DNA from: Candidatus Bathyarchaeota archaeon
GTDB lineage: Archaea > Thermoproteota > Bathyarchaeia > Bathyarchaeales > Bathycorpusculaceae
DNA: 64,000 nucleotides
NCBI GenBank assembly: GCA_963720565.1
Contig: CAVRFW010000008.1
Location: forward strand, 45,415-109,414
Reading direction: 5' to 3'
Numbering within the stretch: position 1 is the first letter of the stretch; each line of letters begins with the position of its first letter. The notes beneath the pieces are model-generated. The model was not told where the DNA came from. It saw only the letters and a program-made list of their open reading frames with translations, and searched no databases. Below, in pieces: positions 4,955 to 31,280 of this stretch. Made by a program: the position numbers and the translations under genes.

Positions 4955-6382
4955 TTAGGGCTGCCACTTTTCTATGAGATACTTCGGGATTTCTGAAGAG
5001 TCGCGTGGTCCCACTTGAACTTTCCAGCCGCTGAGCTCTTCGATTTCTCCGCTTATTCTTGAAGCTTTGCCGGGGATTATGAGTTTTCTGTGTTTCACTT
5101 TGCCTTCAATGCCTGTGGTTTTGATGGAGTCCGCGACTTTTTCTGCTGTCAATTTGCGTCCGGCGACTCCGCTGTCCACGGCTGAGCCTTCAGCGTCTAC
5201 AACGATCAGGTAAGCGTTGAGTTTCGAGCTTTCAAGGTCTGAAGCTACCGTGTAGTAGGTTAAAGCAAAGTTTGTAGTGAAGAATACCGGCGAGTTTTCG
5301 TCTGGCGTGCCGAACACTTTCAATCCTGGATCTACAGCAACTGGCTTTCTTGGGTCAGTGTAAATGTTTTGTCGAAGCACTGCGTTGGGGAGAAGTGACC
5401 ATCCGTCTGCTCCATGCATGATTAAAACGTCTGCATAGCGGACGATGAGCATGCCTGCCAGGTATGCTTCGCGCCACTTGATGATTTCGTCTGCAGCGTC
5501 ACCCTTGCCCACCCAAGCAACCATCGGAACGCCTAGTAATGGAAAACCGGCGAGTTCTTCGCCTGCCTTGCAGGCTGCTCGGCGGAGCATCGTGAAGTTG
5601 TTTAGTGTGTCAGCCATTCCTTCGTTGGCGAATGTTCCGGGGTCTAAGACTATGTCTTGTACTCCGTAGTCTTGGAGAGTTTGGGCTAACGTCACCAGCA
5701 TGTCCAGGTCGTTTGGTGCCGAAGCTACTATTGGGCAGTTGTACATTAAGGCTAGTTCAGCCATTTCTTTCCAGTTTTCCATGTTTGCCGCGTACAATAG
5801 TGGTCTGGCTTTGGGCACTGCCATCAAACCTGCTTCAGCTATGATGGAGTTCAGAGTGCACAGTATTAGTGGGAGAGTCGTGTTTTCAGAGACTTTCTTG
5901 ACGGTTGCCTTGAATTTTTCTGCGTCACCTGAGGTTGATCTGACCGCGATCATGTCCAGTTTTAGTATGTAGCCTATGTATTCGTAGCTGAATTTTTCCG
6001 TGTTCTTTATGCGCTTTAGAACTTCTTCTTCAGGCATCTCGTCTGTGACGTCAATTGCAATAGCGGTTGGATTGAAGTATGTGAACTCGTGGCGGTACAT
6101 GACGAGTTTGCCTCCAAGCTTGACGGCCTTCTCACCGACGCCAACGACTACTTCTTTTATTGCAGGTTTCAGCATTTCTTTTAGTTGTTTGTAAGCTTTC
6201 TCGTGTTCCTTCTTCAGCAAAGGCGGACACTGATCGATGTTTACTTCGCGGTTAACGATTTTTGTGGCGAAAGCCATACAGTTCTCTTGACCGCATTCTT
6301 TGCAGTTTGTCTTGGGAAGCAGTTTGTAAACGTCTATTGGACTGAGTTCTTTAACTCCGACTCTACCTTTTTTTCCACTCAT
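4955..6382 (-). CDS. cdhE: Acetyl-CoA decarbonylase/synthase gamma subunit (corrinoid Fe-S protein large subunit)
   Basis: LPKTNCKECGQENCMAFA...CP Fe-S motif, LRQNIYTDPRKP, TTNFALTY, VGPRDSS. Start taken as MSGKK (6382). Confidence 0.95.
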   Translation of the reverse strand: MSGKKGRVGVKELSPIDVYKLLPKTNCKECGQENCMAFATKIVNREVNIDQCPPLLKKEHEKAYKQLKEMLKPAIKEVVVGVGEKAVKLGGKLVMYRHEFTYFNPTAIAIDVTDEMPEEEVLKRIKNTEKFSYEYIGYILKLDMIAVRSTSGDAEKFKATVKKVSENTTLPLILCTLNSIIAEAGLMAVPKARPLLYAANMENWKEMAELALMYNCPIVASAPNDLDMLVTLAQTLQDYGVQDIVLDPGTFANEGMADTLNNFTMLRRAACKAGEELAGFPLLGVPMVAWVGKGDAADEIIKWREAYLAGMLIVRYADVLIMHGADGWSLLPNAVLRQNIYTDPRKPVAVDPGLKVFGTPDENSPVFFTTNFALTYYTVASDLESSKLNAYLIVVDAEGSAVDSGVAGRKLTAEKVADSIKTTGIEGKVKHRKLIIPGKASRISGEIEELSGWKVQVGPRDSSEIPKYLIEKWQP

Positions 6383-6396
6383 TTCATCCACATCCT

Positions 6397-7623
6397 CTAT
6401 GGTTTTGCAGAAATCCAGTCAGCGAAGCTGCTAGCGTCAGCTTTCTTGCCGCTTACTAATTGACGGGTCACGTCTTTTAGTGTCTTCACTGCAGCTGGAT
6501 GCATCATCATAAAGAGGTCTACACCTGCAAGCAGAAGTGTTAATGCAGTAGTGACTTCCCATAAGGGGCCTCTTAGCTCACGTGGTTCCCATTCGGAAGA
6601 CATTTTCAGCCATGCCTCTCGTGCAGCCCAAGCGTTAGTTGTGCCAGAAGACATTGGATGTGCCAGTTCAGCATCACCCATCAATCCGCCTATTCTTGCC
6701 CTTTCCATGTTTGTGAAAGCGTAGTCTAAACCGTAGCCGAGAGCAGCCGTTGTCAAGTCCATAACTATGTCTTCTCTGCCTAGATAATCATATAATCGCC
6801 TGTTAAGCTCGCGGGCTAAGTTCAAGTCCATTGGAGTGAAAGACAAAGCCACGTGCCCGTTTTTCTTCACGAATTTTGCGCAACGTTCGACATCCATGTC
6901 AGCAGTTAACGAACTAATTAGGAAACGCTCCCCAGCAAAGGTTTCAGTGATCTCTGCGAAAACAGCAGCGTCCTTTACTGGGTCACCGCAACCGCCTATA
7001 ACGAGCGGCACATCAACTGCTTGGGTGATTGCCTCAACAGTCTTCACAGCATCCTTGGGAGATGCATTCTTTAACAATGGATCAATGCTGATTAGATGAA
7101 CCGTTACCATGTCTGCTCCGAACTTATCAACTGCAAGTTTTGCCCAGGCTGCAGGATCTCCGACTACCTCCTTCACGTGCATCTTTACAGCCTTGGACAA
7201 TGGAACTTCCATGTCGAAGACGTCCAAGGTGACTACTGGAGGATGCGGCATTGTACTCTCAAACGAGTAGAAAGCAGGAGAGGTTTCACCGCCGATTGTG
7301 ATTGATCTTCCGCGCGTTCCACCTTCACCTCTGGTGGCGCCCAGTTTTACTTCAGCGATTTTACCGGAATAAGTCTCGATAGGGTAAGCAAATTTTGTTG
7401 AGACAAGTTGTGCAGGTTTTCCCTTCAGGGCTGCGGCTCTTAGCTGAGGCATTAGTTGCCTCGGCAATGAGCCAGATTCGAGCCATAGTTCTAGGTCTTT
7501 GACTTCTAGCTCGAAGTCTTCAAGCTCGATCTCCTGAGCCTTCGCGAGAAGGTCAAGAAGGTCTGGGCTGATTGCTAAGCCGGAGCCTTCGTCTTTCTTC
7601 TTTTTTTCGGCCACAGGCTTCAC
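6397..7623 (-). CDS. cdhD: ACDS delta subunit (corrinoid Fe-S protein small subunit)
   Basis: AALGYGLDYA, MERARIGGLMGD, TNAWAAREAW, RGPLWE and MMMHP motifs; position within the cdh operon. Confidence 0.95.
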   Translation of the reverse strand: MKPVAEKKKKDEGSGLAISPDLLDLLAKAQEIELEDFELEVKDLELWLESGSLPRQLMPQLRAAALKGKPAQLVSTKFAYPIETYSGKIAEVKLGATRGEGGTRGRSITIGGETSPAFYSFESTMPHPPVVTLDVFDMEVPLSKAVKMHVKEVVGDPAAWAKLAVDKFGADMVTVHLISIDPLLKNASPKDAVKTVEAITQAVDVPLVIGGCGDPVKDAAVFAEITETFAGERFLISSLTADMDVERCAKFVKKNGHVALSFTPMDLNLARELNRRLYDYLGREDIVMDLTTAALGYGLDYAFTNMERARIGGLMGDAELAHPMSSGTTNAWAAREAWLKMSSEWEPRELRGPLWEVTTALTLLLAGVDLFMMMHPAAVKTLKDVTRQLVSGKKADASSFADWISAKP

Positions 7624-7624
7624 C

Positions 7625-9025
7625 TTAGTTTTTCTTCTCGCTTTTCGCCGTGCGGATTATGACTTTTTTGGCGTATATTTTTGCGTCCTTTAGGATTATC
7701 TTGAAACCGCCTGCCATTATTGGCAGAGTAGCTGCTGTTGCCACGGGCATCATTACGCCTTCCTCTTTTGCTTCTTCAGGTGCGGCCTCTTCAACTGCTG
7801 CTGTCTCGGCCCATCTTTTCACGACAGGGTGGTTCTTCTCTTTCAAGAAGGCCTTCAAGGAATCGATGTTTTGCGCGTCTTCCTCAGTAGCTATTTTGTC
7901 CACAACTTCTGCTGGTACGAATTCTTTTACGCGTTCCTTTACTTCTTTTGGCAACCAGACTACACGGTTCCATCCGTCGTCTGCTGCAAGGAACTTCTTT
8001 GAGCGCATATACTCGATTGACATTCCATGGAAACCGTCTATCTGCCGTCCGCCAGCCGTTGAGTCAGCGAGAGTCGAGAATGGCAGACCGTTGACCGTCA
8101 CACCTTTGAAGCTTCTGTTGACCACGCCAAAACCGTCGACTTCTGGAATGTAGAAAGCTACCGCTTCAAAGCAGCCGCATGAAGTGTGTGGATGGTCAAA
8201 AGCTGTGTAGAGCCAGACTTGGTTAACTTCGCCCAAAGTGCGTTTCTTGACAGTTTCGTTTATGCCTGAGAACTCGCCTTTTTCCGCGTTAATCAGTTGG
8301 CCTCTTTCAATGGCGAAAACTGGTCCTTTGGGATCTATTTGTGCTGATGCTCGGCCGTCAAACCAGCTGATTGCACCGCAATTGGAGTAGCGTTGAGGTG
8401 TGATGACACATACGTGGCTAGGAGCGAATGATTGGCATAGAACGCAACCGTAGAATTTGTCAACTTCCTCATCTTTGAGGCCTCTGGCTTTGGCGTCTCT
8501 TGTCTCGTAGGCTTGCATGGCTTCGGGATACATTTCTTGTACTTTGGCTGGGTCGGTGATGAAGGTTATCTGGACTTTTTCGATTATTGGAAGTTCGCTC
8601 TTGAATAGTGTGTGAAGAACTTTGCCGATGTACTCGAAAGAGTTCAGGCCCTTCTGGAAGGCTTTCTTGCCTAAGCGCATCCAGATGTCGTAGCGCTGGT
8701 TAAGGTGCATGAAGCCTTCGATGTAGTTCAGATAGCCGTGTATACGCCTTTCGATTACTCCTTCAAGCTGCGGGTCAAGCGTTGATCCAGCGGCTTCTAC
8801 TAGAATTCCAAGAGGTGAGACACTACCTTCTTTCATGTCTTTGATGTCAGGGCCGATTATCGTTACTTTTCCATCTTCAACTTCGTCTAGGGGTCTTACT
8901 TTGGCTAATTCGAATTTTTCTTTGACTGTTGGACCACCGAGTTCTACTTGCATGTCGTTTCTGCGGATGCGTTCGCCCTCGTATATTACGCCAACATCTA
9001 CTGGTATGTCTTTAAACATTGACAT
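7625..9025 (-). CDS. cdhC: ACDS beta subunit (acetyl-CoA synthase, A-cluster)
   Basis: YEGERIRR, CVLCQSFAPSHVC, HTSCGCFE. Start MSMFKD (9025) follows a GGAGG SD. Confidence 0.95.
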   Translation of the reverse strand: MSMFKDIPVDVGVIYEGERIRRNDMQVELGGPTVKEKFELAKVRPLDEVEDGKVTIIGPDIKDMKEGSVSPLGILVEAAGSTLDPQLEGVIERRIHGYLNYIEGFMHLNQRYDIWMRLGKKAFQKGLNSFEYIGKVLHTLFKSELPIIEKVQITFITDPAKVQEMYPEAMQAYETRDAKARGLKDEEVDKFYGCVLCQSFAPSHVCVITPQRYSNCGAISWFDGRASAQIDPKGPVFAIERGQLINAEKGEFSGINETVKKRTLGEVNQVWLYTAFDHPHTSCGCFEAVAFYIPEVDGFGVVNRSFKGVTVNGLPFSTLADSTAGGRQIDGFHGMSIEYMRSKKFLAADDGWNRVVWLPKEVKERVKEFVPAEVVDKIATEEDAQNIDSLKAFLKEKNHPVVKRWAETAAVEEAAPEEAKEEGVMMPVATAATLPIMAGGFKIILKDAKIYAKKVIIRTAKSEKKN

Positions 9026-9029
9026 TTTT

Positions 9030-9572
9030 TTATTGTCCTCCTTCAAACTTTGAAGTCATGACTGTGAGATTGTTCGCCCACTCTTCCAGAGAGGCATTTG
9101 GGAAAGACCAACTTGCGTGAGCGTGGAACAAGTTGTCCAGAGTTATGGTTTTGAGGTCTGGAGCGAAGTGTTTGAGCCCACAGATAATCAGTCCCTCCAT
9201 GTAGTAGGGCATACCTACGAACAATGCTAGGTCGTATGGTCCTTTGCCGTCTAGTCCTTGCCATTCTGGGTCTACAAGCCTGTTGCCTATGTCCATTGCG
9301 GACATGAAGCCAGCCGGGGTGTAGCCGCGTTTAAGGAATTCGCCTACCATGTGGGCTGTAGCGACGACTGGAACTTTGGATGCTCTTGCGAAGTCAATGA
9401 GGTATTCGATGAGCGGTTTGCCTTCCATGAATCTTTCAACTGCGTAGCTTCCGACCACGAGAATTGGGCGTTTGGCTCTTTTCACCATGGCGACTACTAT
9501 TTCTGGTTTCTGAATCGCGTTTGCTTTCTTTGTGGCTGCTATTTCGGCACATTGCCAGGGTTCACATGACAT
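9030..9572 (-). CDS. cdhB: ACDS epsilon subunit
   Basis: EPWQCAEI, KRAKRPILVVG, WQGLDGKGPYDL, LKHFAP, ASWSFPN. Confidence 0.93.
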   Translation of the reverse strand: MSCEPWQCAEIAATKKANAIQKPEIVVAMVKRAKRPILVVGSYAVERFMEGKPLIEYLIDFARASKVPVVATAHMVGEFLKRGYTPAGFMSAMDIGNRLVDPEWQGLDGKGPYDLALFVGMPYYMEGLIICGLKHFAPDLKTITLDNLFHAHASWSFPNASLEEWANNLTVMTSKFEGGQ

Positions 9573-9578
9573 TCATTA

Positions 9579-11927
9579 TCACTCCTTGATTTTTCTAATC
9601 ATTCTTGGAAGCAAGGTCGGATCCGGAATCACGGTTTCTTTCCAGCCTTTTTCATCAAGTATCTTTGTTATTTCATCTTTCATGGTCATCGGCACATCTG
9701 CCATGGTGCGTACGAATCGGTGCACGTCTTCCGGCATGACTCCGTAGAGACGCTTGCTCAGGTCAATATAGTGTGAGAGTTTGATGCTGCGTCCTTTCCA
9801 GGTGTCGTTCGGTCTGATGCATAATTTCGCGATGGCAACCATGGCTTCTTCAGGCGTTTCAACGGTTTGGAACAAGTGTTCAGGTGCAGGACCGATGTTG
9901 ACTTTGTCGCCTGTGCGGGCGTCGTAGACTTCCCAGTCTTCGGGCTTGTCTTCTCTGCCAAGGAGCATTCGGCGATATTTGCTGCCATGTGGGCCGACTA
10001 GGACTGGAATTCCTAAGCGCCAGAATCCTGCTGCAATAGCTGCGGCTTTCTGTGAATATGCGCCCCATGCTAGACCTACTGCGCCAACGCGGTTGTATAT
10101 GTAATCTGCTATTTCTTCGTAGTTGCCTCGGAGGCTGCGTTTAGCGAAGATATTTGCCACTTTAATGGCTGCGCCTGCAATGTGCGCGTTGCTGACACAA
10201 GAACCCGTATTAAGTACGCCTCCAGCTTCGAAGCCACCAGGGAATTCCTCATAAAGACCCTGACCGTCCGAATTCTTATAGGAACCTGCTGACATGGCTG
10301 CACACCCTGAAGTAACTACGATGTAACGTCTTTTTGCAAACTCTCTGCATATGTCATAGACAGCCTTGCCGCCTTTCGGGTAGTTGCTGCATCCTACGAC
10401 AGCAAGAATACCTGGGATTTCCCCGAGAACGATTGGGCTACCAACATTTCGGATTTCTGTGTCTTGAACAGCTCCGCGACCGCAACGACACAAGTTCGTT
10501 TCTTCGGTCATTTGTTTTTCTCCAGCTTTCACAATGAAGCTGTGTATCATAAGTTCCTCTGGACATGCTTCTTCACAGCGTCCACATCCGATACAGTATT
10601 CGTACAAGTCTGTCAGTTCAGCCATTGACCCCTCCGCTGCTGCTTTCAGGGCTTGCGGTATTTTGAGGTCTTGAGGACATGATCTTCGGCAAAGGTTACA
10701 TTGTTTGCAGGTTTTGGCAAGGCTCTTGATTTCCTGAACTTCTGGGAGATTCTTGAATTTCTTGCGAATTGGCTCCATCTTTTGAGCGACTTTAACCGCA
10801 ACCTCCCCAACTTTGTCTGGGTCAAGAATCAGGACACCAGGGACTTTGCCACTTACTAGGTCGGCAACTATTTCGTCTGCGGGGTCGTTTGTGCGATTCT
10901 TGAAGCCCATGCAGTTTTTCTCTGATGCAGCTATAACCGGGGCTCTAGCACGAGTTGCTTCGTCGGCAACATCTGTTCTGACGCATTGCTCGTCCAAAAC
11001 CACTACATCAGCAAAACCACTTCTCAAGAAACGCAGTTGCCAAGAGATTGGACCGACGATTCTTCCTCGGTTGTGGTATCTTGTGATATCGTGCGCGGTG
11101 CAACACAAGCCAACAACCTCTATCTTATCATCTATTTTGTTGTCTCTTGCATAGTCAATAATTGCTATCGAGGGAACAACATTGTGACCAATGCACATAA
11201 CCACTGGCTTTGATTTGTCTACTGTTCCGATACCCAGTGAAACAAGAGGAGCTTCAGGTTCGGCTTTGGGAAAGCCAAGAGTGGAAACCTGAGCGATATC
11301 GCCGACTTCCATTCCCACATGGTCAATCATACCAACATGGAATGCTTTTGATTCAAAATCTAAATTGTTACCTTCCTGCCCAGTGTGAGCAACAGCAACT
11401 GTCTGAGTAATTTGCTCTTCGGCGTATTCTAAGACTTCGTCCAAGTCTCCAAGGGTTTCAGGTTTTATGCCTGTAACAAGACGGGTTATGGGAGCTTCAA
11501 CTTTCACGTTTAAGCCACCGATGTCCAAGGGATATCTTCGACCGTATTTGTCGATCAAGTGATGAAGCATGTGCCGAGCATGAGCCGTGTGAGTCGCGGC
11601 GCCAATGCAACAAGCTATGAGCACGATACGTGATGACTGGGCAGCCATGTCTAAGCCACAGGCGCCACGCTTTCCAGCTGTCAAATCGCATTTGCCAAAA
11701 GTGCATAGACAGCACAAATCACAATCAGGCATGTAGAATGGTTTGTATCTGTTTAGGAGTTTTAAATCCCAATCTCTAAGGGTTGAGAGTGAAGGTTTAG
11801 GTGTGGGACCCATAGGTTCGGTCCAGCTGTCGTCGACAACTTTGCCGATGTTTAGTTCAAGATTTTTAATAAAACTAGTGTTGGTCTTCATTTCGCCTAT
11901 TTTTACGCGCACATTTTTAGTGGTCAA
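9579..11927 (-). CDS. cdhA: ACDS alpha subunit (CO dehydrogenase)
   Basis: EPMGPTPKP, CDLCCLCTFGKC, GHN, GLCCTAHD, two extra 4Fe-4S motifs, GSCVSNAH, AWGAYSQKA, PDPTLL. Confidence 0.97.
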   Translation of the reverse strand: MTTKNVRVKIGEMKTNTSFIKNLELNIGKVVDDSWTEPMGPTPKPSLSTLRDWDLKLLNRYKPFYMPDCDLCCLCTFGKCDLTAGKRGACGLDMAAQSSRIVLIACCIGAATHTAHARHMLHHLIDKYGRRYPLDIGGLNVKVEAPITRLVTGIKPETLGDLDEVLEYAEEQITQTVAVAHTGQEGNNLDFESKAFHVGMIDHVGMEVGDIAQVSTLGFPKAEPEAPLVSLGIGTVDKSKPVVMCIGHNVVPSIAIIDYARDNKIDDKIEVVGLCCTAHDITRYHNRGRIVGPISWQLRFLRSGFADVVVLDEQCVRTDVADEATRARAPVIAASEKNCMGFKNRTNDPADEIVADLVSGKVPGVLILDPDKVGEVAVKVAQKMEPIRKKFKNLPEVQEIKSLAKTCKQCNLCRRSCPQDLKIPQALKAAAEGSMAELTDLYEYCIGCGRCEEACPEELMIHSFIVKAGEKQMTEETNLCRCGRGAVQDTEIRNVGSPIVLGEIPGILAVVGCSNYPKGGKAVYDICREFAKRRYIVVTSGCAAMSAGSYKNSDGQGLYEEFPGGFEAGGVLNTGSCVSNAHIAGAAIKVANIFAKRSLRGNYEEIADYIYNRVGAVGLAWGAYSQKAAAIAAGFWRLGIPVLVGPHGSKYRRMLLGREDKPEDWEVYDARTGDKVNIGPAPEHLFQTVETPEEAMVAIAKLCIRPNDTWKGRSIKLSHYIDLSKRLYGVMPEDVHRFVRTMADVPMTMKDEITKILDEKGWKETVIPDPTLLPRMIRKIKE

Positions 11928-21752: not shown

Positions 21753-22733
21753 CTATATTGGGTAGGCTCCGCATATCTTGCAGAACTGTATTTTTGTTTT
21801 TGTGTAGCTCTTGCAGTATGGACATTGTATTCCTCCGTTGTCAGGATAGACTTCTGAGGGTTTTCCGAATATCTTCCTGAAGTGCTCGTAGTAGAGTAGC
21901 TGTTCTTTGTCCTGGATTTTCACATCGTCTTTTTCTACGATCGCTTTCTTTTGCTCTTCAAAGTCTTCATCCGAGAGCATGTCATTGAAGAATGTTCGGA
22001 GGATTTCAGTTCCTGTTCCCTGTTCAAGAGGAGCTTTTGGACGCCAGATGATGTCTTTGGGTATGACATCCTCGTATGCCTTGCGAAGTATCCATTTGCC
22101 GTATTTTACGCCTTCGCGCATGTTTATTTTGAGTTTGATTGGGAGTTTCTTAGCCCAGTCCATGAAAAGTTGATCCATATAGGGTGCTTTGATGCTCATA
22201 CCCATAGATTGAGCCATAGGGATTGAAGAGAAACCCATTTCGGCCCACATTTCTTTTTGTTTTTGCTGGAACTCAGTCTCGGAAAGGTGGAATTGCCAAG
22301 GGTATCCGAAAAGCTCGTCAAGGGCGTCGCCTGTGAAGACACTTTTTAAGCCTTTTTTCTTCAGCAGGGTTAGGCCTATGTACACAGGCATGCTGTTTCT
22401 AATTTCCATGGGGTCAAACTTTTTTAGCGCCCCAACCACTTTGGGAGCGAAATTTAGGACGTCATCACGGTCGAAGACATGTGTTTCCTGATTCAGTTTC
22501 AGGAAAGCGACCATTTTTTCGACGTATTCTGCGTCTTTCGGGTTTCCATGTTTGAAAGCCATGGTTAGGCATGGAAGGTTTGGGTTGTGCTTCACTGCTT
22601 CATAAGCTATGATTTGCGTGTCGGTTCCTGCTGAGAAGAGCATGGCGTCAGCCATGTTTTTCTGCACGACCTTGTGTACTAAGATTCTGGTTTCTGGCAA
22701 GAGGTTGATGTATTCTTTTTCATCCAGTACCAT
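21753..22733 (-). CDS. Asparagine synthase C-terminal domain protein lacking the glutaminase domain, with a C-terminal Zn ribbon
   Basis: FSAGTDT (variant of SGGxDS), TGDALDELFGY, GKWILRKAY, WRPKAP, CPYC...CKICGAYP. Confidence 0.8.
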   Translation of the reverse strand: MVLDEKEYINLLPETRILVHKVVQKNMADAMLFSAGTDTQIIAYEAVKHNPNLPCLTMAFKHGNPKDAEYVEKMVAFLKLNQETHVFDRDDVLNFAPKVVGALKKFDPMEIRNSMPVYIGLTLLKKKGLKSVFTGDALDELFGYPWQFHLSETEFQQKQKEMWAEMGFSSIPMAQSMGMSIKAPYMDQLFMDWAKKLPIKLKINMREGVKYGKWILRKAYEDVIPKDIIWRPKAPLEQGTGTEILRTFFNDMLSDEDFEEQKKAIVEKDDVKIQDKEQLLYYEHFRKIFGKPSEVYPDNGGIQCPYCKSYTKTKIQFCKICGAYPI

Positions 22734-22935: not shown

Positions 22936-23769
22936 TTGATGTCGGTGACTGTGCCAGAATCTTCAAACCCAGAAGCGTACGTTTTGCGGATAAGCATAGT
23001 TCACATGAAAATCCGCGATACACTAGACGAAAACCTAAAGGCGGCGAAGGCGGGAATTCTCAAAGCTGCAGCACAGAAGCCAGCATTTATCGCCCTCCCA
23101 GAGTATTTCTCCGTGCCGGGTTGCATGCAGAACTTCACGGACGCAGAAAAAATCTTCCAAGAAACCTGCAAAGACACTTTGGAATTCCTGACGGAAGTCT
23201 CCAGAGAAATTCCAGGAATATACCTCCTCGGCGGAACAGTTCTGGAAAAGGAGGAGGAAAAACTCTACAACACAAGTACTCTATGGAAAAACGGTGTGCT
23301 AATAGGAAAGTATCGGAAAAAAAATCCTATTGCAGCCGAAATAAAAGCGGGAGTGGCAAGAGGCATTCAGGCTGTTGTCATAGAAACGGAGCACTGTAAA
23401 GTTGGTTTGATTGTCTGTGCAGACATGTTTGACCCGAATCTAGTAAAGCAAGTTGTCAGTTTAGGAGCTGAAGTGATTTCTCTTCCTGTAGCGGCGATGG
23501 GAACACACCCCAGCGTTAAGGGACATCCTTTGACGGAGAAGGTAGCGACTGACAATGGGGTGTTCGTGATCAAAGTTGGGAACGTCTGTTCCAGCACCAA
23601 GGGAGGAAGAAGTGCGGTGATCGCGCCCTGGGGCATACTCGAAGAGGTATCTGACGCGGAGGAAGATTTGATTATAACGGTTGACTTGGACATGACGAGA
23701 CTTGATGAATACAGAAAGACTATCAGTAAACCTTGGCCCAGTCATCCACGATCTGGCTCATCTCATTGA
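22936..23769 (+). CDS. Carbon-nitrogen hydrolase (nitrilase superfamily)
   Basis: Catalytic triad in LPEYF, YRKKN, IVCADMF; GGRSAVIAPWG. The start may lie up to ~50 nt downstream; 3' end overlaps the next gene by 47 nt. Confidence 0.88.
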   Translation: MMSVTVPESSNPEAYVLRISIVHMKIRDTLDENLKAAKAGILKAAAQKPAFIALPEYFSVPGCMQNFTDAEKIFQETCKDTLEFLTEVSREIPGIYLLGGTVLEKEEEKLYNTSTLWKNGVLIGKYRKKNPIAAEIKAGVARGIQAVVIETEHCKVGLIVCADMFDPNLVKQVVSLGAEVISLPVAAMGTHPSVKGHPLTEKVATDNGVFVIKVGNVCSSTKGGRSAVIAPWGILEEVSDAEEDLIITVDLDMTRLDEYRKTISKPWPSHPRSGSSH

Positions 23770-24607
23770 ATTCATATGTTTTTAGCCAAGCTCGAAAATC
23801 TGTGTTTTTCACTGCAAAGCGACAAATCTGCTTCGCATTCTCGGAATCGTGAACCAAAAATAGAACGCCCTTGAGGTTTTGCTTGGAAACATAAGCCACA
23901 GTCTTCAACAAGGCATCCAGCTTTTCATTGGTTGGCATTTCTGCGCTTAATTCTAGAACAACAGGTTTCTTCAAGATGCGTGTGAAGTCTCTCGCTAGGA
24001 GGTCCACCCAATAGTTTGTTGTATAGTCTCTTGCAGAAAGGGGCACATGGAAATAGTCCACCAGTTCCGCTATCTTTTCAAAGTCTATTCCGAAGCGTTC
24101 CTTAGCCAGGACAGGGTCGGGGTACATTTCAACCGCAAAGGTTCCCTTAACTAGATCCTTTGACTGTTTTAGGAAACTCGTTATTTCTTGCGCACGCCAT
24201 CCCGTCCAGTTTAGTCCGCTTTGCCTCCAGAGTTCTACGCATCGGGGACAAACACAGAATTCTTCTTCTGGGAAGTGGTAAAGGTTGAGAGTAACGCCTT
24301 CAATGTTTTCTTTGTTCAGTTCTTTGATGTAGTCAAAGATTTTTTTTCGGTAGTCAGGGTTTGTTGGGCAAACAAAATCAAAGGGCGTGTTTACTTTCCG
24401 GTTTTTCCTCAGGGCAGGACCGTTTTTTGAAACTGCAACTAAGTTGGGGTTTTCTCGAATGGTTTTTGCGTCACAAAAGCATGTGACATCATTCTGCATT
24501 TCTTTCGCTGCTGGAAAAACTGAGCCGTCTACCCACTTTGAATAGTAGACATGCATATCGAAACCCTCGACTTTTTCCGGAGTGTACGTAACTAAGCCCA
24601 TTTTCAT
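23723..24607 (-). CDS. Cys-rich TIM-barrel protein, paralog A; candidate substrate:corrinoid methyltransferase (MtgB-like)
   Basis: Clear paralog of 26057..26956 (CF.D, C.TNP, HF.E..FCxCPRCVELWRxSGLNW..WRA, PDP.L.KERFG.DF). Start MKMGLV at 24607 aligns with the paralog's start. Function inferred from context. Confidence 0.6.
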   Translation of the reverse strand: MKMGLVTYTPEKVEGFDMHVYYSKWVDGSVFPAAKEMQNDVTCFCDAKTIRENPNLVAVSKNGPALRKNRKVNTPFDFVCPTNPDYRKKIFDYIKELNKENIEGVTLNLYHFPEEEFCVCPRCVELWRQSGLNWTGWRAQEITSFLKQSKDLVKGTFAVEMYPDPVLAKERFGIDFEKIAELVDYFHVPLSARDYTTNYWVDLLARDFTRILKKPVVLELSAEMPTNEKLDALLKTVAYVSKQNLKGVLFLVHDSENAKQICRFAVKNTDFRAWLKTYEFNEMSQIVDDWAKVY

Positions 24608-24668
24608 GCTCTTCAACTCATTCGCGCAACAGATATATTCACGCGACTTATTTAGCTGTTGAATCACA

Positions 24669-24875
24669 ATGGAAAAGCACGAGTCGCCTGTTCTTATCGA
24701 CTACAAAAAATGCCCGCCGTGTTCAGGACTTATTTGTGTAGGGGTTTGTCCCTTGGGTTTGTTTGAGGCTGGAAAAGGTGGTAAACCTGAAATCGTTGAC
24801 ATTGCCTCTTGTACCCGATGCGGCGTCTGTGCGAACTTGTGCCAGAAAAAAGCCATAACAATAAGAGAAAGATGA
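24669..24875 (+). CDS. 2x[4Fe-4S]-type ferredoxin
   Basis: CPPCSGLICVGVCP and CTRCGVCANLC. Confidence 0.85.
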   Translation: MEKHESPVLIDYKKCPPCSGLICVGVCPLGLFEAGKGGKPEIVDIASCTRCGVCANLCQKKAITIRER

Positions 24876-24904
24876 CCAATCCCTATACGGATAATGGTGA
24901 TTGC

Positions 24905-26008
24905 ATGAAACAGTTTGATCTGGAAGCTCCTGGAGTAAAATTGATTCTGGAAAAAAATGTGCTTGCAGTGCTTTCCGATTCTCCGCTAAACACTATCAGT
25001 TCCGCCTTTCACAATGGCGGTGGAATAAAGAAGACAAATGCAATACTCAACGTTGAAGTCTTGAAATCGTACAGTGATCGAACCCTCCACGATGACCCCG
25101 AAGCCTACATAATGGAATCCTCAAAAGTTATTGGACTCAACGAAAGCTTCATAGGCATGGTTACTGCAGCTGCAGTCGAAAACTTTTCAATGGTCTCGAA
25201 AAGAGAAGAGGACCTCGGCGTCAACGTTATTGCCACCGCAGCAGATAACGAAGGTCACACCTGCAATCATGCTGAGTCAGCGGGAGAAAAAATCGAAGTT
25301 AAGGTTATTGAGGGAACAATAAACATCATTGCCGTGGTAGACGGGAATCCGACTGAAAGTTGTCTTGCAGGATTAATAATCACCATAACCGAGGCTAAAA
25401 TGGCCGCGCTAAGGGAGCTTGACATCAGAAGTCGATACTCCGGCGATCAAGCAACTGGAACAATTACGGACTCTGTGGTTGTGGCTGAAACAAACCGGGG
25501 AACTCCGCTAGTTTATGGAGGTCCAGCCTCAAAGCTTGGACAATTGGTCGGGTACTGCACTAGAGAAGCAGTGAAAGAAGCAGTAATGAAAGCAAGTGAA
25601 TGTATGCCGGGCAGATCCCTGATTTCAAGGCTAAGAGAACGAAATTTATCAATTGAAAAATTAGCCTCCGAATTGTCGAAAAGTGAAACCCTGAACCTCG
25701 ACAAAGAAACTTTAGAATACTACATAGAAAGAACCTTGAGAACCAAACCGGAAGCTGCATGGATTTTAATGGCGGCTGCAAAAATGGATGAGGACGTAAA
25801 AAACAATCTTATCCCGCTCGAGTTCGGCAGAATTGAAGCAGCAAGTAGAAAGTTCGGAGAATTCGTGTTGTACAGCAAGATGCAAAGTAGTGCCAAATCC
25901 GACGTTTCGGAGAATGACGAAGTTAGTTTGTCTCCATTCCTGAAGCAGGTTCTAGTAAATATGGCAAAAGAAGCTCGGAATGAGTCTAAAACTGAAAACC
26001 TTAAATAA
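24905..26008 (+). CDS. cbiZ: Adenosylcobinamide amidohydrolase CbiZ with C-terminal extension
   Basis: ISSAFHNGG, GMVTAA, GTINII, TITEAK, ATGTITDSVVV, GGPASKLG. Start MKQFDL at 24905. Confidence 0.85.
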   Translation: MKQFDLEAPGVKLILEKNVLAVLSDSPLNTISSAFHNGGGIKKTNAILNVEVLKSYSDRTLHDDPEAYIMESSKVIGLNESFIGMVTAAAVENFSMVSKREEDLGVNVIATAADNEGHTCNHAESAGEKIEVKVIEGTINIIAVVDGNPTESCLAGLIITITEAKMAALRELDIRSRYSGDQATGTITDSVVVAETNRGTPLVYGGPASKLGQLVGYCTREAVKEAVMKASECMPGRSLISRLRERNLSIEKLASELSKSETLNLDKETLEYYIERTLRTKPEAAWILMAAAKMDEDVKNNLIPLEFGRIEAASRKFGEFVLYSKMQSSAKSDVSENDEVSLSPFLKQVLVNMAKEARNESKTENLK

Positions 26009-26056
26009 CATGCAAAATTTATTCCGTTAACAAAACAATGGAAAATGGTGTAAAAT

Positions 26057-26956
26057 TTGAAATTCGGTGTTTTTCTATATCAACCAGAACCCGTTGAGGG
26101 AGTTGATTACAATTTCTACCGCATCAAACCAGAATCTGGAACTGTTGGGACGCCAAACCCGAAAATGTACACTAACATCGCATGCTTTGGCGATAATGCC
26201 CTAGCTGCGAAGCGCCCAGAATGGATTTCAACTAGCGCGAACGGCCCAGCTTTCCGCACTAACAAGAAATTCAATCTTCGCTGGGATGTGCTGTGTATGA
26301 CGAACCCGGAAGTCCGAGAGTACAATTTGAAGCTAATTGAAGACTGCGCTAGAGTTACCCCAGGCATAAGCATAAGCAGTCAGCACTTCGCTGAACATGC
26401 CTTCTGCACATGCCCCCGCTGTGTTGAACTGTGGCGAAATAGTGGATTAAACTGGGTTGATTGGAGAGCCAAGACCGTAACTGAATTCCTGGCAGAAGTC
26501 CGAGAGCGTGTCGTTAATAAGCCACTGTTCGTAAACTGCCTACCGGACCCATTGCTTGGCAAAGAGCGCTTTGGCTACGACTTTGATGCCATGGCAGAAT
26601 ACACGGACTACTTTGTCATTCCGATGTTCTCAAAAGCTTATCCCACGCCTTGGTACTGGGAAACCATAGCCAGAGGGTACAAAAGTTTCCTGAAAAAGCC
26701 AATGTTCGTTAACTTTTACGTCCGAGGACCAGGAGAAACATGGGAAACCGTTGCGACGACTAAACAGATACTCACGGTTGCCACTCGCGCCGCAAGAACA
26801 GGGGTTGACGGAATAATCTTCCTCGCTGAGAAAGCACAGTGGATACAGGAATTCCAGAAGAACGCAGTTGCAGACAAAGAAACCCGTGAATTTCTCAAAG
26901 ACCACGGCGGCGACGAAGTTCTAGAGCTTGTCAATCGATGGGAATCGCTGTTCTAG
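26057..26956 (+). CDS. Cys-rich TIM-barrel protein, paralog B; candidate substrate:corrinoid methyltransferase (MtgB-like)
   Basis: Paralog of 23723..24607; FCTCPRCVELWRNSGLNW; lies beside the MtrH-like and corrinoid protein genes. Confidence 0.6.
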   Translation: MKFGVFLYQPEPVEGVDYNFYRIKPESGTVGTPNPKMYTNIACFGDNALAAKRPEWISTSANGPAFRTNKKFNLRWDVLCMTNPEVREYNLKLIEDCARVTPGISISSQHFAEHAFCTCPRCVELWRNSGLNWVDWRAKTVTEFLAEVRERVVNKPLFVNCLPDPLLGKERFGYDFDAMAEYTDYFVIPMFSKAYPTPWYWETIARGYKSFLKKPMFVNFYVRGPGETWETVATTKQILTVATRAARTGVDGIIFLAEKAQWIQEFQKNAVADKETREFLKDHGGDEVLELVNRWESLF

Positions 26957-27010
26957 GCGAATCCTCTATTTCTTTCTTTTTTGAAAAGACGCCAACTATT
27001 CTTTTCTTGC

Positions 27011-27427
27011 TTAAGGTTCTTGGTTCTTTACCTTAAGGTAGTGGATTTCCCTATTTTTCATTAAGAACGCGACGAACGATAGAACTGAAACTATCACAGT
27101 CAACGAAATAGTAATTGAAGTAAAGTTAATCCCTATTGGCGAGAGACCTAAGATTAAGCCCACAAGTCCTGCGATGCCAAAACTCAAAGCAACGGACAAC
27201 ACGACTTCTTCTACTAATTCGAGTTTGTTTTTCTTTGAGAACAGAACGGTGACAAGACAGTAACCGGGCAAAATTGCGATGAATAAGAAACTAAACACGT
27301 AGCGTACAATGAAAAACGAAGAGTCGCTTGGAACAAAATATGCAATCAGCATAGTCAAAACTGTAAATAGAATGATAACGCCGAACCAGAGAAGAGGTTT
27401 CACTGTTTGTCCTTCATAAAGATTCAA
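27011..27427 (-). CDS. DUF1616-like membrane protein
   Basis: ILPGYCLV..LF, EEVVLSVALS and GLILGLSPIGI motifs; 4 TM helices. Confidence 0.75.
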   Translation of the reverse strand: MNLYEGQTVKPLLWFGVIILFTVLTMLIAYFVPSDSSFFIVRYVFSFLFIAILPGYCLVTVLFSKKNKLELVEEVVLSVALSFGIAGLVGLILGLSPIGINFTSITISLTVIVSVLSFVAFLMKNREIHYLKVKNQEP

Positions 27428-27461
27428 TATTGAGATTTAAGAAAAATAAAGAAAGGAGGTT

Positions 27462-28370
27462 TTAGAGGAAGTTTTTGAAGATTGGATGTGTCTCGTCGAG
27501 CGGTCTAATATCTAGGTCAGCCATCGCAGATGCAATGTAAGTATCGACTATGGCTACTGCGGGGAAGACCCATTCAGCTTGCTCAGCGGGTCCGAACATA
27601 AGCCAGTTTGCACCTACTGTCTGCATAATCGCGTTTGTGGCAGTAACAGGACCTTTCCTATACTCTTTCGCTACGTTTGCCTTAACCCAGCCCATCGTTG
27701 TAACGACGTTTCCAGTTCCGAGTCCCGTTGGATGACCAAACCTCTCTTTTATCAGAGGAATAGCTCTGACCGCTGTGCCCATATCTGGCGCAAATGCCGG
27801 AATGGCAGTGTCAATTAATGGTTTGGTAATTCCTGCTTTGTCGGCTAGAGCCAATGCTTCCTGCAGAATTGCAAATTTGCCTTCTAAGCTGTTGTCTCTC
27901 GGGTTGTCGGCAAGAACTATGGACATTTTAATTCCGCTATCTTTCAGTTTTGCCAGCTCAATATCTGTGACGCCTTTGTAGACCGAGTTGTACAAGCATC
28001 TGTCCTGCAGACCCATGTCCTTTGCAAGAGCTGAAGCAGCCATTCGGACTTTGGGACTCATCGCGTCCAGCATTAGTGGAGCGTCGCTGTGCTTAGCACA
28101 GAAATCGATGTATTTTCCAAAAGCCTCTTCGGTGGTTCCGACAATGTCGAAACCGAATGGAACACCACTAATGTCGCTCTGAATCTGCATTCGGTTAATT
28201 ATGTCTTCAGCTTGCTGTGCATCAAAAATGCCTTTGTTGGCATCTTGCACCATTTTCTGACCGAGCCAAAAGATAGAGCCGATAAGAAATGTAGGCAATT
28301 CTCCAGGCTGACCGCCAACTTTTACTTTTCCCACATCATAGATGTTTTGTTTCGTGTTGAACTTATTCAT
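27462..28370 (-). CDS. mtrH: Stand-alone MtrH-family methyltransferase (methyl-corrinoid:tetrahydromethanopterin methyltransferase, MT2 role)
   Basis: VGGQPGELPTFLIGSIF, MLDA, LYNS, KPLIDTA, GHPTGLG; no other mtr subunits in the window. Confidence 0.88.
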   Translation of the reverse strand: MNKFNTKQNIYDVGKVKVGGQPGELPTFLIGSIFWLGQKMVQDANKGIFDAQQAEDIINRMQIQSDISGVPFGFDIVGTTEEAFGKYIDFCAKHSDAPLMLDAMSPKVRMAASALAKDMGLQDRCLYNSVYKGVTDIELAKLKDSGIKMSIVLADNPRDNSLEGKFAILQEALALADKAGITKPLIDTAIPAFAPDMGTAVRAIPLIKERFGHPTGLGTGNVVTTMGWVKANVAKEYRKGPVTATNAIMQTVGANWLMFGPAEQAEWVFPAVAIVDTYIASAMADLDIRPLDETHPIFKNFL

Positions 28371-28390
28371 CTTGCCTCATCTGAACGAGT

Positions 28391-28825
28391 TTATTTTTTC
28401 TTTCCGGCCATTGCTTTCTTGGCGATTTCAACGCCTTCTTCCTTGTTTTTGCCGAAAAGTGCCCCCATTGCAGTTGCATCTTCCTTCTTGATTGCAGCGC
28501 CGCCCATGATAAGCATAACTTTGTCTTTGAGTCCAGCTGCTTTTAGTGCTTCATCTAGTTTTGCCAAATTGTTCTTTGCCGGTACTGTGTTTACGGAGAG
28601 TGCGATTATGTCAGCGTTTGTTTCTTTTGCTTTGTCAATGAAGACTTGTGGAGCAACACTTTTGCCGACGTCAATAGTCTTGAATCCCGCTCTTTTTAGT
28701 GATCTGCGGACTGCTTCTTTTGCTGTGTCGTGCATGTCTGGTTCGATGTTTCCGATGACAACTGTGCCGATTGGGTTTTCTGGTTCAGGAGGTTCTTTTT
28801 CCATCATAGATTTAAGCCATGACAT
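28391..28825 (-). CDS. Corrinoid (cobalamin-binding) protein, Rossmann domain only
   Basis: VVIGNIEPDMHDTAK (DxH), GFKTIDVG, ADIIALS, IMGGA; 144 aa with no cap domain. Confidence 0.88.
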   Translation of the reverse strand: MSWLKSMMEKEPPEPENPIGTVVIGNIEPDMHDTAKEAVRRSLKRAGFKTIDVGKSVAPQVFIDKAKETNADIIALSVNTVPAKNNLAKLDEALKAAGLKDKVMLIMGGAAIKKEDATAMGALFGKNKEEGVEIAKKAMAGKKK

Positions 28826-28951
28826 TTAAACACCACTTTTCCTTGGTTTTTTATACCCTCGCTTTTTATACTCGAATAATGTATTTAAACTTTGACTCTG
28901 AAACGTCCCCATCCATTCAATAACAAAAATGATGATTCGGGAAGACGAGAA

Positions 28952-31280
28952 ATGTCCAAAACGTCGCGTCACTACCTTTTACTGTTTCTGATTTTTGCAT
29001 TCTCATTTAGCTATCGCATGCTTCTCATGCACTGGGAAACATACCCGCCCGGAGCAGACATCGGTCTTCACGAAAGTGTAATCTACTCGATAATTGGGTC
29101 AGGAAATACGAATTTTGCATATAATAACTACCAGATGGGAGGAGGGTTGTCTCTAACCTTCCCAGGATTTCACATATTCGTTTCATACGTGATGATGATG
29201 ACGGGTATGCCTGACTACTTGGCACTCTCAACAGTTGTTTCATTCTTCTCTTCGTTTATCGTCCTGTGCGCATACCTAATTGCACGAGTCTTTCAAGGAG
29301 AAGCAGCTGCATTAACGGTGGCTTTCCTAGCAGCGATTTCACGCTTTGATATAGAAATGCTGCTTTGGGGCGGTTTCCCCAACGTGGTAACGCTCATGCT
29401 TATGCCCTTAGCGTTCTATCTGTTTATGCAAAGAGAAAGATTCTCCCTAGCTGCCTTTTCTTGTAGCAACCACAATATTGTCAGGATCAATCTTTCTGAC
29501 CCACTCTATTAGCGCAGTTCTCTTCGTTTTGATAACAATTCTCACCGCAGCGTTAGCGACTATTTTTTCGAGACAAGTCGGCGTTTCAAGAACACATGCT
29601 CTATCCTGGGTTTTGCCTCTTTTTCTGGGGGCCCTCATTGTTTTGCCATTCTTGACAGAGGCTGCTGGAGCATATCTGACTAATGCCAGTCAGCTTAAAG
29701 TTGTCATGAGCGACATTCAAGATGCGCTTCTCTCAACGAGAATTCTGCCTCTAGAGTACGTATTGCCTAGTTTCATCTGTATTCCCCTGTTCTTTCTTTT
29801 CTCAAGAGAATACAAAAAGCGGTTTTTCACAGTGCCTTCTTTGCTTCTTGCAGTCTGGGTAGCAGTACCGCTTCTTCTCACCCAAGGATACATTGTGGGA
29901 TTCTACACAGATTACAACAGATTTCTGTATTACGTTATTCTCCCAGCCGTGATTCTAATCGCTATGGCAATCGATCACGGTTCCAGCTTTTTTGCTGAAA
30001 TGGTAGACATCTATTTGTCCGTGAAAAAGCGAGTAACTACTGCAATAAGCAGCAGCGAATACACTTGTTGGTTAATGCCTTCTCGGTCACGCAAAACCCT
30101 CTATGCATGTTTCTCTTTGGTTCTACTTATCTTAGCATTCTTCGCTGTGCCCATCTTCTTGACCCCCGTTCAAGGGGTAACTATCCAGAGCTTTTACCAA
30201 ACTATGAATAGTCCAGAGTATGAAGCCATTGAATGGGCGCGAAAGAACACCGCAACTGATTCGATTTTTGTTTCCGACGCGCTTTACGGGTGGTGGTTCT
30301 CAGGCTTCGCACAGCGGTCCGTAATAAGCGCCGTTGACCCCCAGTATCTAGCGCTTGCACGCGAGGTTGGACCCGCAGAGTTTGCCAAGAATTTGCTCGA
30401 CACAGACTATGTTATAGATAACGGATTGATTCAAGTCCGAGAAGACGGGGGATATATTGGAAGACATAACCCTATGTTTTTGACCAAGCTTAACTGGACT
30501 TATTTTCCTTACGCTTTCCTAAATTTCAACAACGCTGAAACACAAATAACATATCAAGTAAACGGGAATCCTCAGTCTATATGTTTAGATCAGGTTCCAG
30601 TGCGCGAGATGTGGATTGAAAACGACAGCAAACAAGCGACCATTGTTGTAAAAAAGGGAAATGATTTCGTCAATTATACTCAGCTAGTGTCAATTTACCA
30701 AGGACTTAATTTTGTAAACATGTCAATTTCGTTGGAAAGTCAATTAGACTATGTTAGCCTAAATCGGATCGATTTCACGATACACAGCAAAGGCAGAGTT
30801 GTCGGCGAGATAGAATGCAAGACTGTTGGTTTGTTGGATGAAGGCGTGAAGGCATTTAGCCAGTTGATTTTCGATAAGAGACTGCCTAATAGAGTTGACT
30901 GGGATAACGAAGAAAGCCCTGGCATAATAGAACTAGAGTACTACTTGGAAAAATCATCTAAGTCAGAAATCCAGATTTCAGTAGGAACCTACTCGGTTAC
31001 AGATGATTTGAAGTATTACCTAGACAAAGAGATAACAGAGGAATACTTCAGAGAAATAATCAAGAGTAATTTAGATTCGCCTAGAAAGGGTGGAAACCTC
31101 ACTATTGCAGCCTTTGACTACAGAAGCGCTATGAAAAACAACTCAGTCACCTATGTTGCGCTTCGCGATTTCGATTTAATCCCCAAGTTTGTCAAGGATC
31201 CGGTTTTTGGTTTGGTCTTTATTAATGATTATGTTGCAATATTTGCTGTGAAAGAAGCTCGACTAAGTGGTGCAGAATAG
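28952..31280 (+). CDS. GT-C superfamily multi-TM glycosyltransferase (AglB/PMT-like architecture), one frameshift
   Basis: PPGADIGLH first-loop motif, PGFH, LLWGGFPN, YNRFLYY, AIEWARKNT...SDALYGWW. Two ORF-track pieces (28892-29512, 29478-31280) join via a +1 shift near 29453. Confidence 0.7.

What the first reader, a model, noticed from the sequence alone, without database searches (positions are those of the whole stretch)
23723..28825. Corrinoid methyl-transfer module in which two glycosidase-like TIM-barrel paralogs appear to fill the substrate-specific methyltransferase (MT1) role
Seen: a compact cluster of paralog A, ferredoxin, CbiZ, paralog B, a DUF1616 protein, an MtrH-like protein and a corrinoid protein. 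A and B share CF.D, C.TNP, HF.E, CxCPRC and PDP...ERFG motifs and look like no MtaB, MttB, MtmB or MtoB I recognise. Established: corrinoid demethylation systems need MT1, a corrinoid protein and MT2; stand-alone MtrH homologs act as MT2 onto H4MPT/H4F; CbiZ remodels cobamides. Inference: A and B are the missing MT1 enzymes, using a Cys/His-bound Zn, and methyl groups flow to the ACDS encoded 12 kb away (methylotrophic acetogenesis). From memory, a Bathyarchaeia system named MtgA/MtgB/MtgC that O-demethylates lignin-derived methoxy-aromatics has been reported; this may be that system, so novelty must be checked. Whether A and B differ in substrate or form a heterodimer is not answerable from the sequence.
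Basis: partly seen in the sequence, partly recalled or inferred. Interest (0 to 1): 0.85.

Follow-up and report, generated by a model that had tools for sequence, protein, structure and literature searches.

The report
Known lignin demethylase plus untested partner
This gene cluster matches the vitamin-B12-dependent system published in 2023 that lets sediment archaea strip methyl groups from lignin breakdown products; one of its two barrel proteins is the counterpart of the tested enzyme and likely does the same job, while the other is a separate, untested relative that is predicted to pair with it.

Summary
The seven genes are real, but they form three transcription blocks rather than one operon. 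The cluster is the published bathyarchaeial Mtg system (Yu et al. 2023). The paper's cloning primers encode the termini of paralog B (MtgB_2) and of the corrinoid protein (MtgC), and B is 54% identical to the primer-bearing gene. Paralog A is neither MtgB_1 nor MtgB_2. It is a third, sister clade (31-34% identical to them) that sits beyond cbiZ and the ferredoxin and is missing from the published cluster table. The scan reached the MtgB identification before on other genomes. Verdict: new member of a known system, with an open question about A.

The parts
23723..24607 (-). Paralog A: MtgB-family, third (A-type) clade, 294 aa, function untested; invariant H111, E160, H187, E219, E223 and Cys4 (C80, C118, C120, C123)
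24608..24668 (.). 61-bp divergent intergenic region between A and ferredoxin-cbiZ-B; shared control is inferred
24669..24875 (+). Dicluster-type 4Fe-4S ferredoxin, 68 aa
24905..26008 (+). CbiZ adenosylcobinamide amidohydrolase (ORF opens at 24809; start 24905 inferred from homolog N-termini)
26057..26956 (+). Paralog B: ortholog of MtgB_2 (methyltransferase 1), 299 aa, TTG start; Cys4 (C80, C117, C119, C122), H110
27011..27427 (-). DUF1616 membrane protein, at the position of the paper's 'membrane protein'
27462..28370 (-). MtgA: stand-alone MtrH-like methyltransferase 2; only MtrH match in the genome
28391..28825 (-). MtgC: 144-aa corrinoid protein, B12-binding domain only, D30-x-H32 motif
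4955..11927 (-). ACDS (cdh) gene cluster, the inferred sink for methyl-H4MPT

Best explanation
The cluster encodes the bathyarchaeial Mtg methyl-transfer system: B is the ortholog of the assayed MtgB_2 and likely moves the methyl group of lignin-derived methoxy-aromatics onto the cobamide of MtgC, MtgA likely passes it to tetrahydromethanopterin for acetate formation through ACDS, and A is an untested third paralog predicted to pair with B. Shown: genes, strands, orthology, tree position and conserved residues. Taken from the paper: MtgB_2 methylates Co(I)-MtgC with guaiacol or vanillin. Inferred: B works by SN2 attack of cob(I)amide on the aryl methyl ether at the C-terminal face of a glycosidase-type barrel, with His110, gained where outgroups have glycine, helping the phenol leave. 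The Cys4 zinc is structural. A shares the derived active-site changes but has its own His/Glu set, so it is most likely a second catalytic subunit for a different methyl donor (about 0.45), ahead of a cobamide-servicing role (about 0.35) or a non-catalytic one (about 0.2). CbiZ likely remodels salvaged cobamides to supply MtgC, and the ferredoxin is a candidate reductant in the absence of a known activator.
For: Published primers (supplement 1) encode MKFGMFIY...DKWESILD for MtgB_2 and MSWLKSMM...KKAMASK for MtgC; window B runs MKFGVFLY...NRWESLF and the corrinoid protein starts MSWLKSMM. Locus L017 carries all four primer sites with 1, 0, 0 and 0 mismatches. Its primer-bearing gene is 54% identical to B and 45% to its tandem neighbour; the paper gives 44.85% for MtgB_1 versus MtgB_2. 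Gene order agrees with Table S3. Tree: B groups with the primer-bearing gene (SH-aLRT 94), while A-type genes form a separate clade (100) sister to all B-types (100). 60 of 61 genomes with three or more family matches also have a close MtgA match. The genome shows no MtaB, MttB, URO-D-type MT1 or RACo match, and one MtrH. A-B complex: 0.82 against best control 0.00; that mark was reached by 116 of 157 solved and 2 of 215 mismatched pairs; runs agree in at least 85% of contacts and partner pLDDT is at least 90.
Against: No activity was measured for this B, and 54% identity does not fix the substrate. B is transcribed with cbiZ, opposite to mtgC-mtgA. A stays beside cbiZ and ferredoxin in 40 of 40 loci but MtrH is nearby in only 21 of 40 (14 of 25 loci long enough to tell). 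Eight sampled genomes have the MtgA ortholog without any MtgB match (PMC11697101 reports the same for Bathy-6B). Outgroup homologs sit in B12-handling clusters with no MtgA/MtgC beside them. The published assay rests on one enzyme. Its 14% guaiacol loss from 2.3 mM (about 0.32 mM) is about four times the 79 uM MtgC present with no acceptor described (my arithmetic). The complex score cannot tell a heterodimer from two homodimers: close cousins of true partners passed in 10 of 12 test pairs, the interface is symmetric, my own alignments were used, and MtgB_2 was active alone in the paper. The genome is 89% complete and kin are not independent.
Confidence: 0.78

Rival explanations
1. A (and perhaps B) services the cobamide cofactor rather than the growth substrate. 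With ferredoxin and CbiZ it would remove or exchange the upper ligand of salvaged cobamides, or re-reduce cob(II)-MtgC, standing in for the activating enzyme that the paper could not find.
For: A-ferredoxin-cbiZ in 40 of 40 loci. All 4 single-copy homologs inspected (of 12 outside the order) lie in B12 contexts: between btuF- and btuC-like genes with cbiZ, cobS and cbiB nearby (L091, L092), or head-to-head with pduO (L089, L090). 3 of 80 metagenome loci carry methylmalonyl-CoA mutase and MeaB genes. cobS adjoins mtgC in 6 of 6 genus-g42 loci by clustering. No RACo match in the genome.
Against: A shares with B the loss of both outgroup aspartates and the new histidine, so outgroup context need not carry over to A. 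No ATP-binding domain was found in A. 77 of 80 metagenome loci show no mutase link and none a cbiZ link within the flanks held. The three annotated haloarchaeal plasmid loci show no B12 genes.
Confidence: 0.3
2. A and B are glycoside hydrolases, for example cleaving the ribosyl bond of the cobamide nucleotide loop freed by CbiZ, and sit near mtgA-mtgC only because both need B12.
For: All top fold matches are glycosidase barrels: Cwp19 Z 20.6 (rmsd 4.2, 257 aligned) for B and Z 21.3 (rmsd 3.5, 250 aligned) for A, then PgaB, a fucosidase and GH42. B passes the DUF4015 cut-off. Outgroups keep the beta-4 Asp in 78 of 80 and the PLYD Asp in 76 of 80 loci.
Against: The beta-4 Asp is Ser in 62 of 62 B-type and Asn or Cys in 65 of 65 A-type sequences, and the second Asp is Ser or Ala in all. 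MtgB_2 has published methyltransferase activity. 60 of 61 multi-paralog genomes have the MtgA ortholog.
Confidence: 0.08
3. A and B are independent homodimeric MT1 enzymes with different methoxy-aromatic specificities, and the predicted heterodimer only mirrors a shared homodimer interface.
For: The predicted interface is symmetric and built from family-wide residues P163-D164-P165, R171 and R206; PDP and R171 persist in single-copy outgroups. MtgB_2 was active without A. Genomes often carry three or four paralogs, some unlinked.
Against: A and B stay in one divergent block in 38 of 40 loci, and the two misses are contigs that end inside cbiZ, whereas the MtgB_1-type paralogs wander.
Confidence: 0.35

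Closest known systems
MtgA/MtgB_1/MtgB_2/MtgC O-demethylase of Ca. Baizosediminiarchaeum ligniniphilus (Yu et al. 2023, PMC10989822)
   Same: Corrinoid protein, MtrH-like MT2, membrane protein and MtgB_2 ortholog in the same order; no known activating enzyme; archaeal Wood-Ljungdahl genes and no McrA match.
   Different: No tandem mtgB_1 here: its clade-mate lies on contig C5, with a fourth, frameshifted copy. A, cbiZ and the ferredoxin are not in the paper's cluster table although the same block adjoins the primer-bearing gene in 6 of 6 loci examined. The paper calls MtgB Bathyarchaeia-only and the passages read give no fold.
DUF4015 / GHL10 (Cwp19, 5OQ2; 4S1A) and GH42 beta-galactosidase barrels
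   Same: Predicted TIM-barrel fold (Z about 21 to Cwp19), weak sequence match (4S1A E 3.9e-5 with the broad profile), and C...CxCxxC aligned with the GH42 zinc cluster of 3TTS (E 0.04).
   Different: The carboxylate after strand 4 is replaced by Ser/Asn/Cys and a His follows; identity is 10-16%; the genomic context is corrinoid metabolism.
Bacterial-type O-demethylases (Acetobacterium OdmB/VdmB, Methermicoccus MtoB) and MtaB/MttB
   Same: Three-component logic MT1 to corrinoid protein to MT2, as set out in the paper's introduction.
   Different: No Pfam or NCBIfam match of A or B to these families; no RACo activator found; the corrinoid protein has only the B12-binding domain.

Membership tests
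Bathyarchaeial Mtg system (Yu et al. 2023) | MT1 gene orthologous to the assayed MtgB_2 (about 300 aa) | tested here: met
   B: primer-encoded termini match, 54% to the primer-bearing gene, same clade
Bathyarchaeial Mtg system (Yu et al. 2023) | Adjacent corrinoid protein MtgC and MtrH-like MtgA, then a membrane protein | tested here: met
   MtgC forward primer site has 3 mismatches in the window and encodes the same eight residues
Bathyarchaeial Mtg system (Yu et al. 2023) | Second MT1 gene mtgB_1 in tandem within the cluster | tested here: not met
   Absent from the cluster; an MtgB_1-clade paralog is at G000:C5:389539. A variant of layout, not of gene content.
Bathyarchaeial Mtg system (Yu et al. 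2023) | No RACo-type activating enzyme | tested here: inconclusive
   No PF14574 match, but the genome is 89% complete
Bathyarchaeial Mtg system (Yu et al. 2023) | O-demethylation of guaiacol or vanillin with methylation of Co(I)-MtgC | not testable with these tools
   Shown only for the published MtgB_2
MtgB_1 or MtgB_2 ortholog (paralog A) | Groups with MtgB_1 or MtgB_2 in identity and tree | tested here: not met
   A is 31% and 34% to them, 53% to a third gene beyond cbiZ-ferredoxin, and forms a separate clade. It may be the paper's 'group 3', but Fig. S9 itself could not be seen.
Glycoside hydrolases GHL10/DUF4015/GH42 | TIM-barrel fold of these families | tested here: met
Glycoside hydrolases GHL10/DUF4015/GH42 | Conserved carboxylate after strand 4 | tested here: not met
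   Ser in 62 of 62 B-types, Asn or Cys in 65 of 65 A-types, where 4S1A and Cwp19 align an Asp
MtaB, MttB, URO-D-type (MtoB/OdmB) MT1 families | Profile match to the family | tested here: not met
   No such Pfam or NCBIfam hit for A or B, nor in the genome
MtaB, MttB, URO-D-type (MtoB/OdmB) MT1 families | Structural kinship | tested here: inconclusive
   Only the top 50 of more than 700 chains with Z of 8 or more were listed

The most novel reading that the evidence does not exclude
The working bathyarchaeial demethylase is an A-B heterodimer in which A, with the adjacent ferredoxin, is the missing ATP-independent corrinoid activator or repair subunit. The whole MtgB family descends from an unrecognised glycosidase-fold B12-processing enzyme still present in haloarchaea, bacteria and other Bathyarchaeia, which became a methyltransferase by swapping two aspartates for a histidine.
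Probability: 0.2. Interest if true: 0.75.

Novelty: new member of a known kind. Interest (0 to 1): 0.4.

Why it matters
The system itself is published, so the locus alone is ordinary. What remains useful is practical and testable. mtgB is used as a marker for anaerobic lignin demethylation, yet a homology search also collects the untested A clade and single-copy relatives in B12 clusters and in aerobic haloarchaea, so marker counts can be inflated. The published system lacks an identified activator and a mechanism; the fold, the structural zinc assignment, His110 and the predicted A-B dimer give specific residues and a specific partner to test.

Tried and rejected
NCBIfam gave no family for A or B. 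A sequence search of the PDB with the narrow profile gave nothing under E 0.6. No known MT1 structure appeared among the 50 rows listed in the fold searches, which does not exclude kinship. The ESM Atlas returned only bathyarchaeial hypothetical/DUF4015 clusters and GHL10 clusters. Taxonomy of the distant protein representatives could not be looked up, so only the four plasmid records are named; 'bacterial-type' and 'haloarchaeal-type' for metagenome loci are inferred from GC content and neighbours. No homolog was found in the non-Bathyarchaeia Thermoproteota sampled (11 of 251 hits, all in families of the class). RNA: 16 runs held only 5-10% of the words. Contigs of 4 of them cover mtgC and mtgA of relatives, one 1285-nt contig spanning both, with only short pieces on A and B; contigs cannot rank genes or show transcripts. 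The sigma-70 promoter scan was uninformative for an archaeon (12 found, 7.7 expected). The first tree had two rows on the wrong strand and was rebuilt with 41 rows, 19 fewer, mostly long-branch or redundant ones; only the quick method was used and no clade test was run. Literature: 'DUF4015 + cobalamin' found 0 papers; searches listed no structural or mechanistic study of MtgB, but subscription journals are not covered. L083 (25% identity, E 4e-4) was dropped from the 41 loci before counting.
Full report
Observation. The window is G000:C8:45415-109414 of a 2.09-Mb, 89% complete genome; its close relatives are titled Bathyarchaeia. The seven ORFs are present but on mixed strands: A (23723-24607, minus), ferredoxin, cbiZ and B (24669-26956, plus), and corrinoid protein, MtrH-like and DUF1616 (28825-27011, minus). 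A and the ferredoxin diverge across 61 bp. Pfam confirms Fer4, CbiZ, DUF1616, MtrH and B12-binding; B matches DUF4015 and A matches GHL10 below cut-off. A and B are 34% identical. ACDS lies 11.8 kb away; Mch is present, and McrA was not found.

Identity with the published system. I read parts 1-4 of 6 of Yu et al. 2023 (PMC10989822), parts 1-2 of 3 of its Word supplement and part 1 of 3 of its spreadsheet; figures were not visible. The paper describes mtgC, mtgA, a membrane protein, mtgB_1 and mtgB_2 as consecutive genes and shows that MtgB_2 methylates Co(I)-MtgC with guaiacol and vanillin. Its MtgB_2 primers encode MKFGMFIY and DKWESILD; window B begins MKFGVFLY and ends NRWESLF. Its MtgC forward primer encodes MSWLKSMM, the exact start of the window's corrinoid protein. 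The MtgB_2 forward primer matched 10 of 401 genomes of the class, all in one genus. In L017 all four primer sites match with at most one mismatch, and the primer-bearing gene is 45% identical to its tandem neighbour, against 44.85% in the paper. I use these two genes as stand-ins for MtgB_2 and MtgB_1. B is 54% and 47% identical to them; A is 34% and 31%, but 53% to a third gene beyond cbiZ and the ferredoxin, present in 6 of 6 loci of that genus examined. A quick tree of 41 rows (midpoint root) puts A-types in one clade (SH-aLRT 100), sister to a clade (100) holding MtgB_2-like genes with B and MtgB_1-like genes with an unlinked paralog of this genome. So B is the counterpart of the assayed enzyme and A is not; A may be the paper's untested 'group 3' (inference).

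Neighbourhood and distribution. Of 41 loci found with A, 40 were strong. Ferredoxin and cbiZ adjoin A in 40 of 40, B in 38 of 40, and MtrH in 21 of 40, or 14 of 25 where at least 3.5 kb beyond B is held. Across 221 genomes of the class, 79 match the family. 61 have three or more matches, and 60 of these carry a close MtgA match; 8 genomes have that MtgA without any family match. Passages of PMC11697101 report the same gap for Bathy-6B. Kin are not independent, so this shows co-inheritance only. This genome has one MtrH and one stand-alone corrinoid protein among 10 B12-binding matches, and no MtaB, MttB, URO-D or RACo match, so the MtgB paralogs are the only MT1 candidates found.

The family is wider than published. 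Twelve genomes outside the order have one strong homolog. The four inspected lie between btuF- and btuC-like genes near cbiZ, cobS and cbiB, or head-to-head with pduO. A profile search found 38 representatives at E 1e-30 or better. One of them matches plasmids of Halomarina, Halocatena, Halobaculum and Halococcus, without B12 genes nearby in the three inspected. Window A and B each hit all 80 metagenome loci kept of 361; 3 of 80 carry mutase and MeaB genes and none MtrH, corrinoid protein or cbiZ within the flanks held. The paper's statement that MtgB occurs only in Bathyarchaeia, repeated in review passages (PMC12694404), holds for the A+B clade in my sample but not for the family. An earlier scan note (e1-5209984) gave me this lead.

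Structure. Models of B and A have mean pLDDT 96. All leading matches are glycosidase barrels, led by Cwp19. C80 plus CxCxxC are invariant even in distant homologs and align weakly (E 0.04) with the cysteines of GH42 enzyme 3TTS, whose zinc is described as structural (passages of PMC8573354). Outgroups keep an Asp after strand 4 (78 of 80) and in PLYD (76 of 80) and have Gly at the His position (77 of 80); all 62 B-types and 65 A-types lack both Asp and have the His. A-types also keep E160, H187, E219 and E223, B-types Y221, R244 and R247. These sets suggest related but different active sites (inference; positions in space were not measured). The interface is symmetric, close cousins often pass, and homodimers were not run, so this shows a likely dimer surface rather than a proven heterodimer.

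Mechanism and rivals. Best reading (0.78): B is the MT1, MtgC the carrier and MtgA the MT2 onto tetrahydromethanopterin, feeding ACDS. Passages on Bathyarchaeum tardum report growth on dimethoxybenzoate and vanillate with acetate formation and no activating enzyme (PMC10477458). For A, a second MT1 subunit is slightly favoured over cobamide servicing with ferredoxin and CbiZ; true glycosidase activity is unlikely. A caution on the anchor: the published HPLC loss of guaiacol exceeds the MtgC present about fourfold with no acceptor described, and only methanol is named as negative control in the text read.

Verdict. A new member of a known system, found before by this scan on other genomes. The searches listed no paper on the fold, the zinc site, the A clade or the wider family. 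The bioRxiv version was seen only as passages and its supplements are closed; unseen supplement parts and Fig. S9 could bear on whether A is group 3. Interest 0.4.

Noticed in passing
G000:C5:389539-390429 and G000:C5:180886-181798: Two further family members in this genome: an intact MtgB_1-clade paralog and a copy broken by two frameshifts, possibly assembly indels.
   Followed up: partly
window 28892-31280: The two ORFs match one 779-aa membrane protein of relative G336, split by a frame change near 29455; likely an assembly indel or pseudogene. This gene pair flanks mtgC in many loci.
   Followed up: partly
L061:531-1916, L046:4474-5898, L102:9813-11195: A B12-binding radical SAM gene (BchE/HpnJ-like, below all cut-offs) lies near B in many relatives (cluster seen in 18 of 47 loci) but not in this window.
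   Followed up: partly
window 22936-23769 and 21753-22733: A nitrilase-family gene follows A in 27 of 40 loci, often with an asparagine-synthase-like gene next; role unknown.
   Followed up: no
L111:385-4998, L112:469-6819: Bacterial-type loci where the outgroup homolog directly follows an operon of methylmalonyl-CoA-mutase subunits and MeaB.
   Followed up: partly
L064, L068: Records titled Acidoferrum and Nanoarchaeia carry the bathyarchaeial block and their genomes have four matches each; the titles look like mislabels.
   Followed up: partly
G000:C3:116784-131255: A separate B12 uptake and salvage cluster (btuFCD-like, cobT, cobS, cobY, a short second cbiZ-like match) without an MtgB-family gene.
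   Followed up: partly
window 19629-21625: Two convergent ORFs that look like deoxyhypusine-synthase paralogs (label recalled, no family scan run).
   Followed up: no
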